From a virus: a stretch of DNA of 36,193 bases. The notes below the pieces were generated by a model, which saw nothing but the letters and a program-made list of their open reading frames with translations, searched no databases and was not told where the DNA came from. The position numbers and the translations under genes are program-made. Every line of letters starts with the position of its first letter. The stretch's first letter is position 1. Shown piece after piece: positions 26,466-30,755 of the stretch. Location of the stretch: the UHGV virus genome UHGV-0315046, one strand, 5' to 3'.

Positions 26466-27902
26466 TCAGAATCCTCCTTTCTTCTTGGACTGCGGTTCCT
26501 CGCGTTCACGTCGGCGCATTTCAGCAGACTGTTGGTCTGTGTCATAAATAGCGCCATTTGCCTGAATGCAATACACCGTGCCGGTATTGCCATGACGATT
26601 GAGACGAAGGATTAGTTCGGTTTCACCAGGAGGAACGCTGTCATCAAAAGCACCTTCACGATGGATCCCGACCCAATAATCGCAATCCTGTTCAATCTGC
26701 CCTGTATCTCGCGAGTCACTTGGTAATGGGCGTTTATTGGTTCGGCTTTCCAATGCGCGGTTAAGCTGTGTCAGAAGCACAACAACGCAATCAAGCTCTT
26801 TGGCAAGGTTCTTCAGTCCTTTGGTGATCATGCCGTAAGCAAGGTCGTTGCGATCGGCCTTCTCAGCGGTCATTAGTGTCAGGTAATCGACCAGAATCAT
26901 GCCAACACATCCTTTTTCTCGCTTGATTCGACGGCTTTCGCTAACGATTTGAGCCAGAGATAATCCCGGCGTGTCGTCGATGTAAAGCAGGTCGATTTCA
27001 CTCAAACGATTAGCTGTTTCGATCGCCCTGTTGAAGTCACCATCGTAATCACCCTGATAGCCGTCATCAGCGTCACTTGTCGCCGGAAGGTAAAAAATAT
27101 TCGGGTTAACACCTGACTTCTGTCCCACCAGTTTTTCCAGTATCTGATCACCTGGCATTTCAAGGCTGAACATCAGAGCGGGCTTTTTCTCATGCACTGC
27201 GCAATTGATTGCCATCTGGCTGTATAGCGTCGTTTTCCCCATCTTAGGGCGAGCGCCAATGACAAACAGAGAGCCTTTCACCAGACCTTTCGGTGACAGC
27301 ATCCTGTCCAGCGATGGGATCCCTGTGCTCATTCCTCGTTGTTCGCCTGACGGGTCAAATCGCTTCTCAAGGTCGCTAACCCAGTCTTCCATGACCTCAC
27401 CAAATGAGCGAAGGCCGCGACGCGATCCGGTTTTTGCATGGTCTGTCAGTTGCGTGAAAATCGCCTGAATAGCTTCGTACTTCTGCGTCGCAGTCATTCC
27501 GTTGCGGGAATAGAGCAATTCCGTCGCTTCAGTCATGCGGTTGATGGCGTAGCGTTCCATTGCGGTTTCGCGAACCTGCATTGCATAGGCAACGATGTTT
27601 GCGGCGCTTGGCGTGTTCTTTGCGATCTCAGCGATATAAGCAAAACCGCCAACAGACGCCGTTAACGATTTACGCTCCAGTTCATCGAAAAGCGTCAGGC
27701 CATCTACTGGCTTTTGCTCCCGGTGCATTCTGGTTATTTCTTCGAAAATGATTTTGTGTGGTCGGCTGTAAAATGAATCAGGCTTCAGCATCGCCAGAAC
27801 TTTCTGGACGCGCTCACTGCTGTCATCATCCAGAAGCAATCCACCAATCACCGCCTGCTCTGCCTCGATGCTATGGGGCGGCGCATAAAAATTATCGGTC
27901 AT
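26466..27902 (-). CDS. Replicative DNA helicase (DnaB family; P22 gene 12 analogue)
   Basis: Start refined to MTDNFYAPPHSIEAEQAVIGGLL (DnaB N-terminal signature); Walker A GARPKMGKTT; 478 aa. Confidence 0.9.
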   Translation of the reverse strand: MTDNFYAPPHSIEAEQAVIGGLLLDDDSSERVQKVLAMLKPDSFYSRPHKIIFEEITRMHREQKPVDGLTLFDELERKSLTASVGGFAYIAEIAKNTPSAANIVAYAMQVRETAMERYAINRMTEATELLYSRNGMTATQKYEAIQAIFTQLTDHAKTGSRRGLRSFGEVMEDWVSDLEKRFDPSGEQRGMSTGIPSLDRMLSPKGLVKGSLFVIGARPKMGKTTLYSQMAINCAVHEKKPALMFSLEMPGDQILEKLVGQKSGVNPNIFYLPATSDADDGYQGDYDGDFNRAIETANRLSEIDLLYIDDTPGLSLAQIVSESRRIKREKGCVGMILVDYLTLMTAEKADRNDLAYGMITKGLKNLAKELDCVVVLLTQLNRALESRTNKRPLPSDSRDTGQIEQDCDYWVGIHREGAFDDSVPPGETELILRLNRHGNTGTVYCIQANGAIYDTDQQSAEMRRREREEPQSKKKGGF

Positions 27903-28782
27903 CGTGTTCACCCTCACGAACTTTCAGGTAGGTATTATCGTTAAGCAGGAAATCAAATCCCTTTTTGTGCCAGACGGTTCCGCGCTGATGGTTTGGGCGC
28001 TCTTCGAACATCCATCGGCAATTTTCGCCTACGTAGCTCAAATAATTTCTCCAGTCCTGCATCGTGAAGCCATGCCCGTCAAGCTGGCGGGTTATCACTC
28101 CGGCTTTGCGCCAGAACGTTCGGATCTGGTTTTTACGCTTGTCATTCAGTGCGCGGATTCTTGGCGCTTCAGGAAGGATTTCGTGGTAAGCATCGACAAC
28201 ATCCTGACAGCTAACGGAAGGTTTTTTCTTGTCAGACTTTTTGTCTGCTGCGGTACTCTCTAATACGTCAGTATTAGAGATATTATTTATATTATTGTTT
28301 ATGGACAACCGTTGGACAACCGTTGGACAATCTCCGCTGAGAGCCGCGCCATTACTGGTGTTTGCGTTGGACAACCGTTGGACAACCGTTGGACAATTTT
28401 TTGCCTGAAAATCGTCATATTTAACGATTGTAAACAGGCTAAATTTCTTCCCCATCGAGCAAATATTAAGCATCCCTTTCGACTCAAAAGTCCGCAATAA
28501 GCTCCGAACTTTGTTGTCGGGGATGAATGTTTCTCTGACCAGAGACGGGCGTCCAGTTATCATCTGACCGCGATCAACAGTTATCGGCCCGATATCCGTA
28601 TTGACGACAGTAGATTCGTGATTAGCCTTGAGGATTAAGTGAAGCCAAAGATGTACTGCCTGAGAGTCCTTATAGAGCCTGCTGTCCATAAACTGGCGGT
28701 GTATAGAGACATACCCCATACTGGATGCCTCCTGATGTTGTACAGGGTTATGCCTGTAATCAGCTAACTTAACGACGCCCAT
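27892..28782 (-). CDS. Replication initiator (lambda O / P22 gene 18 analogue) containing the origin
   Basis: 296 aa; ori iterons lie inside the coding sequence (translated as CPTVVQRLS repeats followed by an Asn/Ile-rich stretch); directly upstream of the helicase. Start codon uncertain. Confidence 0.75.
   Translation of the reverse strand: MGVVKLADYRHNPVQHQEASSMGYVSIHRQFMDSRLYKDSQAVHLWLHLILKANHESTVVNTDIGPITVDRGQMITGRPSLVRETFIPDNKVRSLLRTFESKGMLNICSMGKKFSLFTIVKYDDFQAKNCPTVVQRLSNANTSNGAALSGDCPTVVQRLSINNNINNISNTDVLESTAADKKSDKKKPSVSCQDVVDAYHEILPEAPRIRALNDKRKNQIRTFWRKAGVITRQLDGHGFTMQDWRNYLSYVGENCRWMFEERPNHQRGTVWHKKGFDFLLNDNTYLKVREGEHDDR
28262..28400. repeat. Replication origin: two clusters of 11-bp iterons (CCGTTGGACAA, ~5.5 copies) plus flanking AT-rich stretch
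   Basis: Direct repeats at 28302-28330 and 28365-28396 separated by 34 bp; AT-rich tract 28262-28300 just downstream in the initiator reading direction. Confidence 0.7.
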
Positions 28783-28930
28783 GTTTCACTCCTGCTTTGG
28801 CTAGTCTGTAAACACCAACAAGGCGCTCTGCGAACGCCCTGTTATTTGCTGCGGCTACCACTAATCCCTCAGGTGAATCAGGGTGTCGAATCTCTTCTTT
28901 TTCCTGGTATTTCTTACGACGTTTTGTCAT
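28769..28930 (-). CDS. Small basic hypothetical protein between cII and the initiator
   Basis: Start refined to MTKRRKKYQEKEE... with AGGAG upstream; 53 aa; overlaps the initiator start. Confidence 0.35.
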   Translation of the reverse strand: MTKRRKKYQEKEEIRHPDSPEGLVVAAANNRAFAERLVGVYRLAKAGVKHGRR

Positions 28931-28964
28931 AATTACTCCTGTGGATTGATCCAGTCTTTCTACA

Positions 28965-29243
28965 TCAGGCCTCAAAACTGTTGCAGCAGTCTTGAGGCTT
29001 TTCTTTTGTCAGCACCTTGGCTACTTTCTTTGCCAGTTCCGCCAATTCCTCGTCTTCAACACCCCACTCCAGCACAGCCATAAGCATGGCCATCTTTGGG
29101 ATAAAACTGTCTTTCCATCGCGAAATTTGCGATTCATTAATCCCTAACGCGTCGGCAACCTTTCGCTGACCACGTACAGCAATTCGATTTAGGATGTTGC
29201 TTGTAATTGCATTCGCTTTCTTGCGAGTACTTGTAAGTTGCAT
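28965..29243 (-). CDS. cII: CII transcriptional activator
   Basis: Start refined to MQLTSTRKK...; core ESQISRWKDSFIPKMAMLMAVLEWGVEDEELAELAKKVAKVLT resembles lambda CII; the 121-aa track ORF is an in-frame upstream extension. Confidence 0.8.
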   Translation of the reverse strand: MQLTSTRKKANAITSNILNRIAVRGQRKVADALGINESQISRWKDSFIPKMAMLMAVLEWGVEDEELAELAKKVAKVLTKEKPQDCCNSFEA

Positions 29244-29278
29244 ATGTAAGTATTTCCTTAACAAATAAGAAGTTATGC

Positions 29279-29346
29279 GCATCAACTTATGCGCGTTGTA
29301 TTCCCGCATTTCGGCGGGAATGAGGACCATGACTGTTAAAGAGCGG
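29279..29346 (-). promoter_or_regulatory. nutR (boxA plus boxB hairpin)
   Basis: Minus strand boxA-like CGCTCTTTAAC followed by boxB hairpin TCCCGC-CGAAAT-GCGGGA, between cro and cII. Confidence 0.5.
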
Positions 29347-29351
29347 TGTTA

Positions 29352-29546
29352 CTATTTGTTTTTCTTGTTGCTTGGGAAAGGACGAACTTCCTCTCCAATC
29401 ACACTGCCATCAGGCTTTACCGTAACCATGATGTTACGGCCTGCCAGAATGGCCTTGCTGATAGCGCACTGGATTACACCAAAGTCACTGGCTGCTTTAG
29501 CCTGTCCATGGATTTTGGCGTAATCGGCAAGTGTCATTCGAATCAT
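29352..29546 (-). CDS. cro: Cro repressor (lambda type)
   Basis: Start refined to [10 protein letters not shown]... with GGAGAG upstream; C-terminal [17 protein letters not shown] resembles lambda Cro. Confidence 0.85.
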
Positions 29547-29552
29547 ATGCAC

Positions 29553-29652
29553 TCTCCGTTATTAACCATGAACAAAGAATACTACAGGTATTCAAAGCAA
29601 TCAATACTCAGGGTATTTTTAGTTTAAGTACCTTAGCTATTAGAATTAAGCT
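29553..29652. promoter_or_regulatory. OR operator / PR-PRM divergent promoter region
   Basis: Two clear 15-bp palindromic operators AATACTacaGGTATT (29578-29592) and AATACTcagGGTATT (29603-29617) between cro and cI; cI starts with almost no leader. Confidence 0.6.
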
Positions 29653-30369
29653 ATGGAAAATAAAAAATCACTGACGACAGAACAGCTCGAAGACGCTAAG
29701 CGGCTTAAGGCTTTGTATGAGTCAAAAAAGAAAGAATTGGGAATAACCCAATACTCAATCGCTGATGAACTGGGTATCACCCAAGGAGCGGTAGGGCATT
29801 ATCTTAATGGCAGAAACGCGCTAAACGTTGAGGTTGCATCTGGTTTTGCACGATTGTTGCAAGTCTCAATTGCTGATTTTAGCCAGTCAATTGCTGCCAA
29901 GGTTGCAGAACAGGCAGAAAGCCTTAAGAGCGATGCCAACGTAAGGTATGCAGGGGAATACAGAGCAGGAAAGAGGTATCCGGTGTTAAGCAGTATCCAG
30001 GCTGGCTCGTGGTGTGAAGCATGCGAACCATACACCATTAAAGACATAGATGTTTGGCTTGAGTCTGACGCGCATATTCAAGGTAATGCGTTCTGGCTTA
30101 AAGTGGAAGGTGATTCAATGACGGCACCGGTTGGGTTAAGCATTCCAGAGGGAACATTCGTTCTTTTCGATACCGGAAGGGAGGCGATCAACGGCAGCTT
30201 GGTCATAGCAAAACTTTCTGACTCTAACGAAGCAACATTCAAGAAGCTGATAATCGACGGCGGAAATAAATACCTCAAGGGACTTAATCCTGCATGGCCT
30301 CTCGTGCCAATCAATGGAAACTGCAAGATTATAGGCGTTGCAATTGAGACAAAACTAAGGCTGGTTTGA
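29653..30369 (+). CDS. cI: CI repressor (HTH N-terminal domain plus S24 LexA-like autocleavage domain)
   Basis: 238 aa; N-terminus LTTEQLEDAKRLKALYESKKKELGITQ resembles lambda CI; Ala-Gly cleavage site (SIQAGSW), catalytic Ser (EGDSMTAP) and Lys (FKKLI). Confidence 0.9.
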   Translation: MENKKSLTTEQLEDAKRLKALYESKKKELGITQYSIADELGITQGAVGHYLNGRNALNVEVASGFARLLQVSIADFSQSIAAKVAEQAESLKSDANVRYAGEYRAGKRYPVLSSIQAGSWCEACEPYTIKDIDVWLESDAHIQGNAFWLKVEGDSMTAPVGLSIPEGTFVLFDTGREAINGSLVIAKLSDSNEATFKKLIIDGGNKYLKGLNPAWPLVPINGNCKIIGVAIETKLRLV

Positions 30370-30386
30370 TCACGCAAGGGGCGATT

Positions 30387-30755
30387 ATGGTTGGAACCGC
30401 TATAGCAAGCTTTTTGGGGATGTTGGCAATCTCAACAATTTACGGCTTAGCGCATGCTTTTATTGCGAAATCTCTATCAGAAAAAATAAGCCAGGCTTGG
30501 GCGCATAGATCTGCTCGTTTCATGATTCTAGTGGTCATAGCAATACAAGGGATATCTGCATTTATCCTCTATGGATCAAGCTTATACCTGTTGTATCAAG
30601 GCGCGACATTTACGCCTTACACCAGTGATTACGGAACTCTATACGATGGTAGTGAAGACATCTCTATGGCTTGGATCGTCTTTGGTTTATCTATGGCCGT
30701 GTCTGTTGTAGCAGACATCATTAAGGTAATTCTCGTCTTAACCTTCGCTGACTAA
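30387..30755 (+). CDS. Small multi-pass membrane protein co-transcribed with cI (rexB-position moron)
   Basis: Start refined to MVGTAIASFLG... with AAGGGG upstream; about four hydrophobic helices by inspection; begins 18 bp after the cI stop and ends before OL. Confidence 0.55.
   Translation: MVGTAIASFLGMLAISTIYGLAHAFIAKSLSEKISQAWAHRSARFMILVVIAIQGISAFILYGSSLYLLYQGATFTPYTSDYGTLYDGSEDISMAWIVFGLSMAVSVVADIIKVILVLTFAD

What the first reader, a model, noticed from the sequence alone, without database searches (positions are those of the whole stretch)
28262..28400. Replication origin iterons embedded in the initiator gene
About 5.5 copies of CCGTTGGACAA in two clusters, with an adjacent AT-rich tract, sit inside the O-like coding sequence, the lambda-type ori architecture. 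The half-repeat GTTGGACAA is the likely initiator binding site.
Basis: seen in the sequence. Interest (0 to 1): 0.4.

Follow-up and report, generated by a model that had tools for sequence, protein, structure and literature searches.

The report
Phage replication origin inside initiator gene
The repeats are real and are almost certainly the replication origin of a P22-like/lambdoid E. coli phage, lying inside its own initiator gene; the same element is already annotated as a putative origin in phages Sf6, HK620 and L, so the finding is correct but ordinary.

Summary
Six 11-bp direct repeats (TTGTCCAACGG in gene orientation) lie in two clusters of three at window 28298-28396. They sit inside a minus-strand initiator gene (27892-28782). 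A 21-nt, 95% A+T tract (28281-28301) and a perfect 10-4-10 inverted repeat (28257-28280) follow. The gene is 99% identical to Shigella phage Sf6 gene 43, whose GenBank record marks exactly 28302-28397 as a putative rep_origin. The phage L genome paper describes the same six 11-bp repeats as the likely origin. In 27 diverged relatives the 3+3 layout and 11-bp period persist, and five of the six CCA cores are invariant in the alignment. The flanking bases fall into six classes that follow the initiator's N-terminal domain. Within a class the 8-nt cores barely vary, while neighbouring third codon positions vary freely. An 11-bp period puts successive copies in three reading frames, so coding-driven repetition is excluded. 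The origin DNA encodes a predicted disordered linker. [quoted passage not shown] The architecture is therefore lambda-like by layout, not by detectable homology. No binding or replication experiment on this origin type was found. Verdict: already known, low interest.

The parts
27892..28782 (-). Replication initiator gene (296 aa), the 'O-like' / phage L 'gene 18' / Sf6 gene 43 type. Folded N-terminal domain at about aa 23-125, predicted disordered linker aa 126-188, folded C-terminal domain aa 189-293.
   Evidence: ORF. PHROG 345 'replication initiation O-like' E 3.8e-85. 99% DNA identity to Sf6 gene 43. AlphaFold2 domain and linker pattern.
28364..28396 (-). Iteron cluster 1, upstream in gene orientation: TTGTCCAACGG, TTGTCCAACGG, TTGTCCAACGC at 28386-96, 28375-85 and 28364-74. 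Encodes CPTVVQRLSN.
   Evidence: conserved in 27 relatives.
28331..28363 (-). 33-bp G+C-richer spacer between the clusters. It keeps the clusters 66 bp apart (6 x 11) and evolves fast.
   Evidence: Within-class diversity is 0.18-0.39 against 0.00-0.065 for the iteron cores.
28298..28330 (-). Iteron cluster 2: TTGTCCAACGG, TTGTCCAACGG, TTGTCCAtaaa at 28320-30, 28309-19 and 28298-308. The last copy runs into the AT tract.
28281..28301 (-). AT-rich tract (TAAACAATAATATAAATAATA in gene orientation; 95% A+T, A-rich on the sense strand). Presumed DNA unwinding element.
   Evidence: present at the same place in all 27 relatives.
28257..28280 (.). Perfect inverted repeat TCTCTAATAC-4 nt-GTATTAGAGA (10-bp arms, 4-nt loop T[G/A]A[C/A]). 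It holds the same position as the 12-4-12 palindrome of lambda ori.
   Evidence: I5. ssDNA fold -7.5 kcal/mol, z -4.2, on either strand. Covariation: 10 of 10 pairs have changes on both sides, 98.2% of cells are paired, and no pair varies on one side only. Lambda palindrome.
26466..27917 (-). DnaB-like replicative helicase gene. It overlaps the initiator stop codon. No separate loader gene lies between the two.
   Evidence: Pfam DnaB (6e-32) and DnaB_C (3e-60). The same pairing was seen in the 25 related loci checked.

Best explanation
This is the theta-replication origin of a P22-like/lambdoid temperate phage, embedded in the phage's own initiator gene. SHOWN: six 11-bp direct repeats in two triplets, all in one 11-bp phase, are followed by a 21-nt AT-rich tract and a 24-bp hairpin-forming inverted repeat. 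Across relatives they evolve as DNA elements, not as coding sequence, and they lie in the codons of a predicted disordered linker between two folded domains. INFERRED: the N-terminal winged-helix-like domain of the initiator binds the TGTCCAAC cores, probably head-to-tail and one per helical turn on one face of the DNA. The array of three plus three bound domains, helped by supercoiling and by rightward transcription through the gene, distorts the DNA and melts the adjacent AT tract. The C-terminal domain then brings in the phage's own DnaB-like helicase, encoded by the next gene, so no lambda-P-like hijacking of host DnaB and no separate loader is needed. The inverted repeat next to the melted region is selected for base-pairing ability rather than for sequence. 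It most likely acts as a hairpin or cruciform in unwound DNA, for example to mark or stabilise the helicase-loading or priming site. Its role is the least certain step.
For: Identity with annotated origins:
- The gene is 99% identical to Sf6 gene 43. The Sf6 rep_origin feature maps to window 28302-28397.
- The phage L record also carries a rep_origin. [quoted passage not shown]

DNA-level rather than protein-level constraint:
- The three copies of a cluster start in frames 2, 1 and 0.
- In 27 diverged loci the 3+3 layout and the 11-bp period are kept, and five of the six CCA trinucleotides are invariant in the alignment.
- Within an iteron class, nucleotide diversity of the 8-nt cores is 0.000-0.065. 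It is 0.18-0.39 in the spacer and 0.18-0.52 at third codon positions of the N-domain.
- The two Sf6-versus-window differences inside the repeat region fall outside the 8-nt cores.

Specificity pairing:
- The six iteron classes follow the N-terminal domain (nearest neighbour in the same class 26/26), not the C-terminal domain (15/26).
- Window versus HK022: C-domain 100% identical, N-domain 50%, different iterons. CobraSix versus Izhakiella: N-domain 89%, C-domain 46%, same iterons.

Initiator:
- The N-domain is similar to SPP1 gp38 (28% over aa 20-127, E 8e-13). gp38 binds repeats of oriL inside gene 38 next to an AT-rich unwinding element, and that origin has been reconstituted in vitro (PMC5737612, PMC6316719).
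- The predicted N-domain gives only weak Foldseek matches, all to winged-helix DNA-binding domains.
- The linker aa 126-188 has pLDDT below 50 and is exactly the origin-encoded part.

Layout and variants:
- Lambda ori has the same order: iterons, AT tract, then a 12-4-12 palindrome.
- The hairpin covaries strongly: score 0.839 against 0.19 in shuffles and at most 0.195 when the partner columns are slid.
- Natural variants with 1, 2 or 3 clusters (274, 296 and 318 aa) all keep the AT tract and hairpin in complete replication modules.
Against: No binding, footprinting or origin-activity experiment for this origin type was found in the searchable literature. All database labels say 'putative'.

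The iterons are physically next to the N-domain codons. The iteron-to-N-domain association could therefore partly reflect linkage and the position of recombination breakpoints rather than co-adaptation.

C-terminal-domain identity does not correlate with helicase identity across loci (Spearman 0.08-0.19), so the proposed C-domain-to-helicase contact has no comparative support here.

Fold matches for the N-domain are weak (best E 0.014), and the alignment used for the model was shallow (20 sequences, at least 72% identical).

The hairpin followed by a T-rich run also reads as a weak terminator on the antisense strand.
Confidence: 0.85

Rival explanations
1. The repeats are a by-product of a repeated peptide (CPTVVQRLS x2) in the initiator protein. 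Selection acts on the protein, and the DNA has no binding function.
For: The 33-bp unit is duplicated in frame 66 bp apart, so the peptide CPTVVQRLS does occur twice. P and Q of that peptide are invariant in five diverged proteins.
Against: Inside each cluster the 11-bp copies are read in three frames and give unrelated residues. The invariant P, Q and S/T/A are what one CCA trinucleotide yields in three frames. The cores are far more conserved than the surrounding codons, including positions that would be silent. The segment is predicted disordered, and proteins with one, two or three units all exist, so the peptide is not structurally required.
Confidence: 0.03
2. The 11-mers are genuine initiator-binding sites, but their main role is regulatory: autoregulation, a replication-fork barrier or handcuffing, as proposed for SPP1 oriR. 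Initiation would then start somewhere else.
For: SPP1 gp38 binds a second site, oriR, that is proposed to stall forks (PMC6316719). Binding sites alone do not prove initiation.
Against: No other copy of the iteron exists in the 36-kb window. The sites are always joined to an AT-rich tract and a covarying hairpin in the order of a proven origin, lambda. PMC8022706 cites earlier genetics in which the P22 and L replication genes could not be swapped singly, but the whole region could. The authors take this to place the origin within that region.
Confidence: 0.07
3. The inverted repeat plus the AT tract (28257-28301) is an intrinsic terminator for transcription on the window + strand, antisense to the initiator gene, and not part of the origin.
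For: The pattern scan flags a 10-bp stem at 28257-28280 followed by TATTATTTAT on the + strand. The phage L record carries an automatically predicted terminator on that strand at the same place. Base-pairing is conserved by covariation.
Against: The stem has only 3 G-C pairs, and the terminator count in the region is no higher than in shuffles (1 found, 1.6 expected). The only promoter-like matches on that strand lie downstream of the stem, none upstream, and their count is only about 1.5 sd above shuffles (4 found, 2.0 +/- 1.3 expected). No Rfam RNA matches. Of 170 pair cells only one is G-U, at the outermost pair, and no pair varies on one side only. That is the pattern expected if both DNA strands must pair, not an RNA of one strand. 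The A-rich sense tract is also explained by its position as an unwinding element, as in lambda.
Confidence: 0.1

Closest known systems
Putative origins annotated in Shigella phage Sf6 (gene 43; AF547987 rep_origin 28385-28480) and Salmonella phage L (gene 18), with Sf6's note citing similarity to phage HK620
   Same: It is the same element. The gene is 99% identical to Sf6 gene 43, and the annotated rep_origin maps to window 28302-28397. Phage L has (A/T)TGTCCAACGG in the same 3+3 layout, described in PMC8022706.
   Different: Only point differences, all outside the 8-nt cores. The published annotations cover the repeats only. They do not include the AT tract, the covarying hairpin, or the one- and three-cluster variants.
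Bacteriophage lambda ori (four iterons, AT-rich region and 28-bp palindrome inside gene O)
   Same: The origin lies in the middle of the initiator gene, between the codons of two domains. The order is iterons, then an AT-rich tract that is A-rich on the sense strand, then an inverted repeat with a 4-nt loop. Iteron specificity goes with the N-terminal domain, and the gene is mosaic.
   Different: Lambda iterons are about 19-20 bp, internally dyad-symmetric and spaced 20-24 bp apart. Here they are abutting 11-bp direct repeats with no conserved dyad. The junction palindrome CAACGGTTG of this window is lost in phage L. The initiators share no detectable sequence similarity. The partner gene here is a DnaB-like helicase, not a lambda-P-type protein.
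Bacillus phage SPP1 oriL and origin-binding protein gp38 (G38P)
   Same: The N-terminal domains are related (28% identity, E 8e-13). The origin repeats and the AT-rich unwinding element lie inside the initiator gene just after the N-domain codons. A DnaB-family phage helicase is encoded downstream.
   Different: SPP1 has a separate helicase loader (gp39) between initiator and helicase, and a second binding region, oriR. Neither is seen here. The repeat sequences and spacing differ, and the C-terminal domains are unrelated.
Phage P22 gene 18 / gene 12 replication module
   Same: Same gene order: an initiator with an internal origin, followed by a DnaB-like helicase. Several records of this family use the P22 names gp18 and gp12.
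   Different: According to PMC8022706, true P22 gp18 is only 25% identical to the phage L protein and carries four repeats of about 20 bp instead of six 11-mers. It is a different specificity and architecture class.

Membership tests
Sf6 / HK620 / L-type putative phage origin | Near-identical initiator gene with the annotated repeat region at the same position | tested here: met
   99.0% identity over 891 bp. The Sf6 rep_origin corresponds to window 28302-28397.
Sf6 / HK620 / L-type putative phage origin | Six 11-bp repeats with core TGTCCAACG in two triplets | tested here: met
   phage L comparison; description in PMC8022706.
Lambda-type origin (layout) | Iterons inside the initiator gene, followed by an AT-rich tract and then an inverted repeat | tested here: met
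   Window. Lambda.
Lambda-type origin (layout) | Iterons of about 19 bp with internal dyad symmetry, spaced about 20-24 bp apart | tested here: not met
   The units are abutting 11-bp direct repeats. The only dyad, CAACGGTTG at copy junctions, is not conserved in phage L.
Lambda O protein family (Pfam PF04492 Phage_rep_O) | Sequence match of the initiator to lambda O or its Pfam model | tested here: not met
   No PF04492 hit at E up to 0.01. BLASTP against lambda O gives E 4.6. A remote fold-level relation was not tested.
Lambda-type replication module | Partner protein is a P-type recruiter of host DnaB | tested here: not met
   The downstream gene encodes a full DnaB-like helicase with DnaB and DnaB_C domains.
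SPP1 gp38-type origin-binding protein | N-terminal domain homologous to gp38 | tested here: met
   tblastn E 1e-5; pairwise BLASTP E 8e-13, aa 20-127 against 2-112; PHROG 'DnaD-like helicase loader' families, E down to 1e-23.
SPP1 gp38-type origin-binding protein | Separate helicase loader gene (gp39-like) between initiator and helicase | tested here: not met
   The initiator and helicase ORFs overlap with no intervening gene. The same holds in related loci. L087 is an exception, with an extra stretch of about 250 nt.
Any iteron origin | Initiator protein binds the repeats, and the segment supports initiation | not testable with these tools
   No experiment was found for this family. Only comparative inference is available.
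Tandem peptide repeat (coding-driven) | Repeat period is a multiple of 3 and conservation is at the amino-acid level | tested here: not met
   The period is 11 bp, and copies lie in frames 2, 1 and 0. Conservation is at the nucleotide level.

The most novel reading that the evidence does not exclude
The covarying 10-4-10 inverted repeat beside the AT tract may be an obligatory, structure-only component of this origin family: a hairpin or cruciform that forms once the AT tract melts and directs helicase loading or priming. In that case it would be functionally equivalent to the lambda palindrome; to my knowledge (recalled, not checked here) the role of that palindrome has never been settled. 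Together with head-to-tail binding of winged-helix domains to abutting 11-mers, this would define an origin-opening geometry different from the lambda O-some. The natural one-, two- and three-cluster alleles would provide a ready-made dosage series.
Probability: 0.35. Interest if true: 0.4.

Novelty: already known. Interest (0 to 1): 0.22.

Why it matters
The finding places the replication origin of a common prophage type. The full element occurs in 145 of 5,426 complete E. coli genomes, and the hairpin side alone in 226 more. That is useful for annotation, for building origin plasmids and for interpreting mosaic recombination in lambdoid phages.

It also shows that 'O-like' initiators of this class are gp38/DnaD-like by sequence and not lambda-O-like, while the tripartite origin layout is shared. 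The one point worth an experiment is the strictly Watson-Crick covarying hairpin next to the unwinding element. One recent study reports that the Lamassu defence system senses the lambda origin during replication (PMC12663957), which gives such origin-associated DNA structures some current interest.

Tried and rejected
1. Dyad-symmetric site. In this window the junction of two copies makes a 9-bp palindrome (CAACGGTTG), which suggested four dimer sites as in lambda. I rejected this because phage L has CAACGGATG, and the other classes lack the dyad, while the direct 11-mer is kept.

2. DnaA boxes or another host factor. By eye the cores differ from the DnaA-box consensus as I recall it (not tool-checked). 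The firmer point is that the cores change class together with the phage N-domain, which argues against a host protein.

3. A second origin copy, like SPP1 oriR. None was found in the window at up to 1 mismatch, and the two 2-mismatch hits are within chance expectation.

4. Known RNA family over the hairpin or iterons. There was no Rfam match at E up to 1 in 27000-30500.

5. Co-variation of the initiator C-domain with the helicase. No correlation appeared (Spearman 0.08-0.19), so the test was inconclusive.

6. PDB sequence search and NCBIfam scan of the initiator gave no hits. Pfam gave only a sub-threshold DUF7376 match.

7. The viral-contig scan returned 80 loci that were all 99-100% identical, which was useless for comparison. 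The genome-contig scan supplied the diversity.

8. The promoter-like matches TGGACA-18-GACAAT on the + strand are produced by the iterons themselves. Their count is only about 1.5 sd above shuffles, so I did not pursue them.

9. Does the hairpin sequence follow either protein domain? It does not. Y. pekkanenii (iteron class C) and Erwinia AnSW2 (class D) share one hairpin. HK022 and E. adelaidei (both class B) have different ones.

Full report
**1. What is in the sequence**

Window 28257-28396 lies inside a 296-codon ORF on the minus strand (27892-28782). Read in gene orientation the region contains, in order:
- TTGTCCAACGG, TTGTCCAACGG, TTGTCCAACGC (28396 down to 28364).
- A 33-bp G+C-richer spacer.
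- TTGTCCAACGG, TTGTCCAACGG, TTGTCCAtaaa (28330 down to 28298).
- A 21-nt tract of 95% A+T (28301 down to 28281).
- A perfect inverted repeat, TCTCTAATAC-TGAC-GTATTAGAGA (28280 down to 28257).

Start-to-start spacings are 11, 11, 44, 11, 11, so all six cores are in one 11-bp register. The 9-mer GTTGGACAA occurs five times in the window, all here, against 0.31 expected; 0 of 100 shuffles reached five. No other copy with up to 1 mismatch exists in the 36 kb. Its interval only clips the last 5 nt of the inverted repeat.

**2. Genomic context**

The ORF matches PHROG 345 'replication initiation O-like' (E 3.8e-85). The next gene (26466-27917) encodes a complete DnaB-like helicase (Pfam DnaB and DnaB_C). 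Upstream lie a small conserved ORF and the cII, cro and cI homologues. This is the early-right operon of a lambdoid phage. The window as a whole is a mosaic P22-like E. coli phage or prophage.

**3. It is already annotated elsewhere**

- The gene is 99.0-99.2% identical to those of IME10, HK106, mEp234 and Shigella phage Sf6.
- The Sf6 GenBank record carries a rep_origin feature: 'putative; repeat region reminiscent of the phage lambda origin; similar to phage HK620'. In window coordinates it is 28302-28397.
- The phage L record has a rep_origin at the equivalent place.
[quoted passage not shown] It adds that true P22 gp18 is only 25% identical and has four repeats of about 20 bp (PMC8022706).
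- A full-text search for the repeat sequence found no other relevant paper.
- I found no binding or origin-activity experiment for this origin type. The Stx-phage O/iteron work concerns lambda-type O proteins (PMC7466680).

**4. Is it a DNA element or a coding by-product?**

*Reading frames.* The 11-bp period is not a multiple of three. The three copies of a cluster start in frames 2, 1 and 0 and encode C-P-T / V-Q-R / L-S-N. Only the 66-bp duplication of the whole cluster is in frame.

*Conservation across relatives.* I compared 27 loci: this window, phages L, HK022, Klebsiella ST101-KPC2phi6.1 and Enterobacter CobraSix, and 22 prophages from different Enterobacterales species.
- All keep three plus three copies at an 11-bp period and about 66 bp between clusters. 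Two loci, Leclercia and Silvania, have extra sequence in the first cluster.
- All keep an AT-rich tract and a 10-4-10 inverted repeat.
- Five of the six CCA trinucleotides are invariant in the alignment in all 27.
- The 'invariant' P, Q and S/T/A of the linker peptide are what CCA yields in three frames.

*Nucleotide diversity within an iteron class.*

| Region | Diversity |
|---|---|
| 8-nt iteron cores | 0.000-0.065 |
| 33-bp spacer | 0.18-0.39 |
| Third codon positions of the N-terminal domain | 0.18-0.52 |

The two differences between this window and Sf6 inside the repeat region fall outside the 8-nt cores.

**5. Who binds the repeats?**

The flanks of CCA define six classes:

| Class | Core |
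|---|---|
| A | TGTCCAAC |
| B | TTACCAGC |
| C | (G/T)TGCCAAC |
| D | TGTCCAGC |
| E | AATCCAAAG |
| F | TTACCAA |

- Class membership follows the N-terminal domain. The nearest neighbour by N-domain identity is in the same class in 26 of 26 cases, against 15 of 26 by C-domain identity.
- There are clear mosaics. Window versus HK022: C-domain 100% identical, N-domain 50%, different iterons. CobraSix versus Izhakiella: N-domain 89%, C-domain 46%, same iterons.
- This is the pattern known for lambdoid O proteins. The caveat is that iterons and N-domain codons are adjacent, so linkage contributes to the association.

The AlphaFold2 model has two confident domains (about aa 23-125 and 189-293). 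The linker (aa 126-188) has pLDDT below 50, and it is exactly the part encoded by the iterons, the AT tract and the hairpin. Foldseek matches for the model are weak (E 0.014 or higher). All are winged-helix DNA-binding domains, including the RepA_N plasmid initiator N-domain.

**6. Relation to known initiators**

- Lambda O: no similarity. BLASTP gives E 4.6, and there is no Pfam Phage_rep_O hit.
- SPP1 gp38: the N-domain is similar (28% identity over aa 20-127, E 8e-13), and it also matches PHROG 'DnaD-like helicase loader' families.
- gp38 is an experimentally established origin-binding protein. Its oriL repeats and AT-rich unwinding element lie inside gene 38, and they suffice for in-vitro theta replication (PMC6316719 and PMC5737612).
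- Unlike SPP1, no separate loader gene is present here.
- Lambda ori read with the same tools shows four iterons of about 20 bp, an A-rich AT tract, then a 12-4-12 inverted repeat. The order is the same tripartite one, but the iterons are longer and dyad-symmetric.
- So the element works like lambda ori in layout. It is the same element as the Sf6/HK620/L putative origin. Its initiator is gp38-like rather than lambda-O-like by sequence.

**7. The inverted repeat**

- On 17 distinct sequences, 98.2% of pair cells are Watson-Crick or G-U.
- All 10 pairs show changes on both sides, and none varies on one side only.
- Covariation score: 0.839 observed, 0.19 in shuffles, at most 0.195 when partners are slid by 1-3 columns.
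- Only one G-U occurs, at the outermost pair.
- It folds equally well as ssDNA on either strand (-7.5 kcal/mol, z -4.2).
- The arm sequence assorts independently of both protein domains.
- The selection therefore appears to act on pairing itself and on both strands. That fits a DNA hairpin or cruciform next to the unwinding element better than a protein operator or an RNA stem.
- A weak antisense terminator remains a minor rival. The stem plus the T-rich tail is flagged on the + strand and is auto-annotated in phage L. Against it, the only promoter-like matches on that strand lie downstream of the stem, and no Rfam family matches.

**8. Natural copy-number variants**

The protein search found alleles of 274, 296 and 318 aa that differ by exactly one 22-codon unit. 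At the DNA level they carry one, two or three iteron clusters, that is 3, 6 or 9 iterons. Each keeps the AT tract and the hairpin, in complete cI-cro-cII-orf-initiator-helicase modules. This shows that the linker peptide is dispensable in length, and it offers a natural series for testing iteron dosage.

**9. Mechanism**

*Shown:* the anatomy, the DNA-level constraint, the association with the N-domain, the disordered-linker coding, and the homology to an origin-binding protein.

*Inferred:*
- N-domain monomers bind the abutting 11-mers head-to-tail on one DNA face.
- The two triplets assemble a nucleoprotein complex that melts the AT tract.
- The C-domain recruits the phage DnaB-like helicase.
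- The hairpin assists loading or priming.

The C-domain-to-helicase step has no comparative support (Spearman 0.08-0.19).

**10. Verdict**

The finding is right, and its interpretation is supported. But it rediscovers an element already annotated and described as a putative origin, and it occurs in about 2.7% of complete E. coli genomes. Novelty: already known. Interest is low. The only modestly new points are the family-wide covarying hairpin, the gp38-like rather than O-like identity of the initiator, and the cluster-number alleles.

Noticed in passing
window 28257-28280; alignment A4: The inverted repeat next to the AT tract keeps perfect Watson-Crick pairing through at least 11 different arm sequences in relatives. 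All 10 pairs show double changes and none shows a one-sided change. Its sequence assorts independently of iteron class and of the C-domain type. The Sf6 and phage L rep_origin features cover only the repeats and stop short of it.
   Followed up: yes
L111 2887-2916 and L113 2887-3048 (relatives); proteins P0032 and P0003: Natural alleles of the same initiator carry one cluster (3 iterons, 274 aa) or three clusters (9 iterons, 318 aa) instead of two. They differ by exact 66-bp units. Whether the one-cluster origin is functional is unknown.
   Followed up: partly
protein P0040 (292 aa, a single 5.5-kb contig): Between the two clusters this variant reads the iteron region in a different frame (IVQRLSNGCPTQTPVMARLSAEIVQRLS) and then returns to frame. 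This implies compensating indels in the repeats, or an assembly error.
   Followed up: no
window 28923-28955 (- strand): An exact copy of the 33-bp sequence that PMC3349717 gives as the conserved oop promoter and 5' end of lambdoid phages lies between the cII homologue and the small ORF upstream of the initiator. This suggests an oop-like antisense RNA. Rfam gave no hit in the region.
   Followed up: partly
window 28769-28975 (- strand): A small ORF (68 aa as listed; 53 aa in relatives; PHROG 1331, unknown function) always sits immediately upstream of and overlapping the initiator gene. It corresponds to the HK97 gp53 homologue noted in Sf6 and to P22 orf48. Its role in the replication module is unknown.
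   Followed up: no
L112 3315-5780: In one E. coli chromosome carrying the one-cluster origin, the downstream DnaB-like helicase gene is called as 821 aa instead of 478. This could be an insertion, an intein or a fusion.
   Followed up: no
L087 (CACSKA010000001.1) and L107 (NZ_BAAAQN010000274.1): An 86%-identical initiator with class-A iterons sits on a 799-kb contig labelled Chryseobacterium sp., and a fragment sits on a 501-bp contig labelled Catenulispora. Both hosts are implausible for an enterobacterial lambdoid prophage, so mislabelling or contamination is likely. L087 also has an extra stretch of about 250 nt between initiator and helicase.
   Followed up: no
window 28302-28331 and 28368-28397 (+ strand): Each iteron cluster creates a sigma-70-like match (TGGACA-18 nt-GACAAT) on the strand antisense to the initiator gene. 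It is probably incidental, since the count is only about 1.5 sd above shuffles.
   Followed up: no
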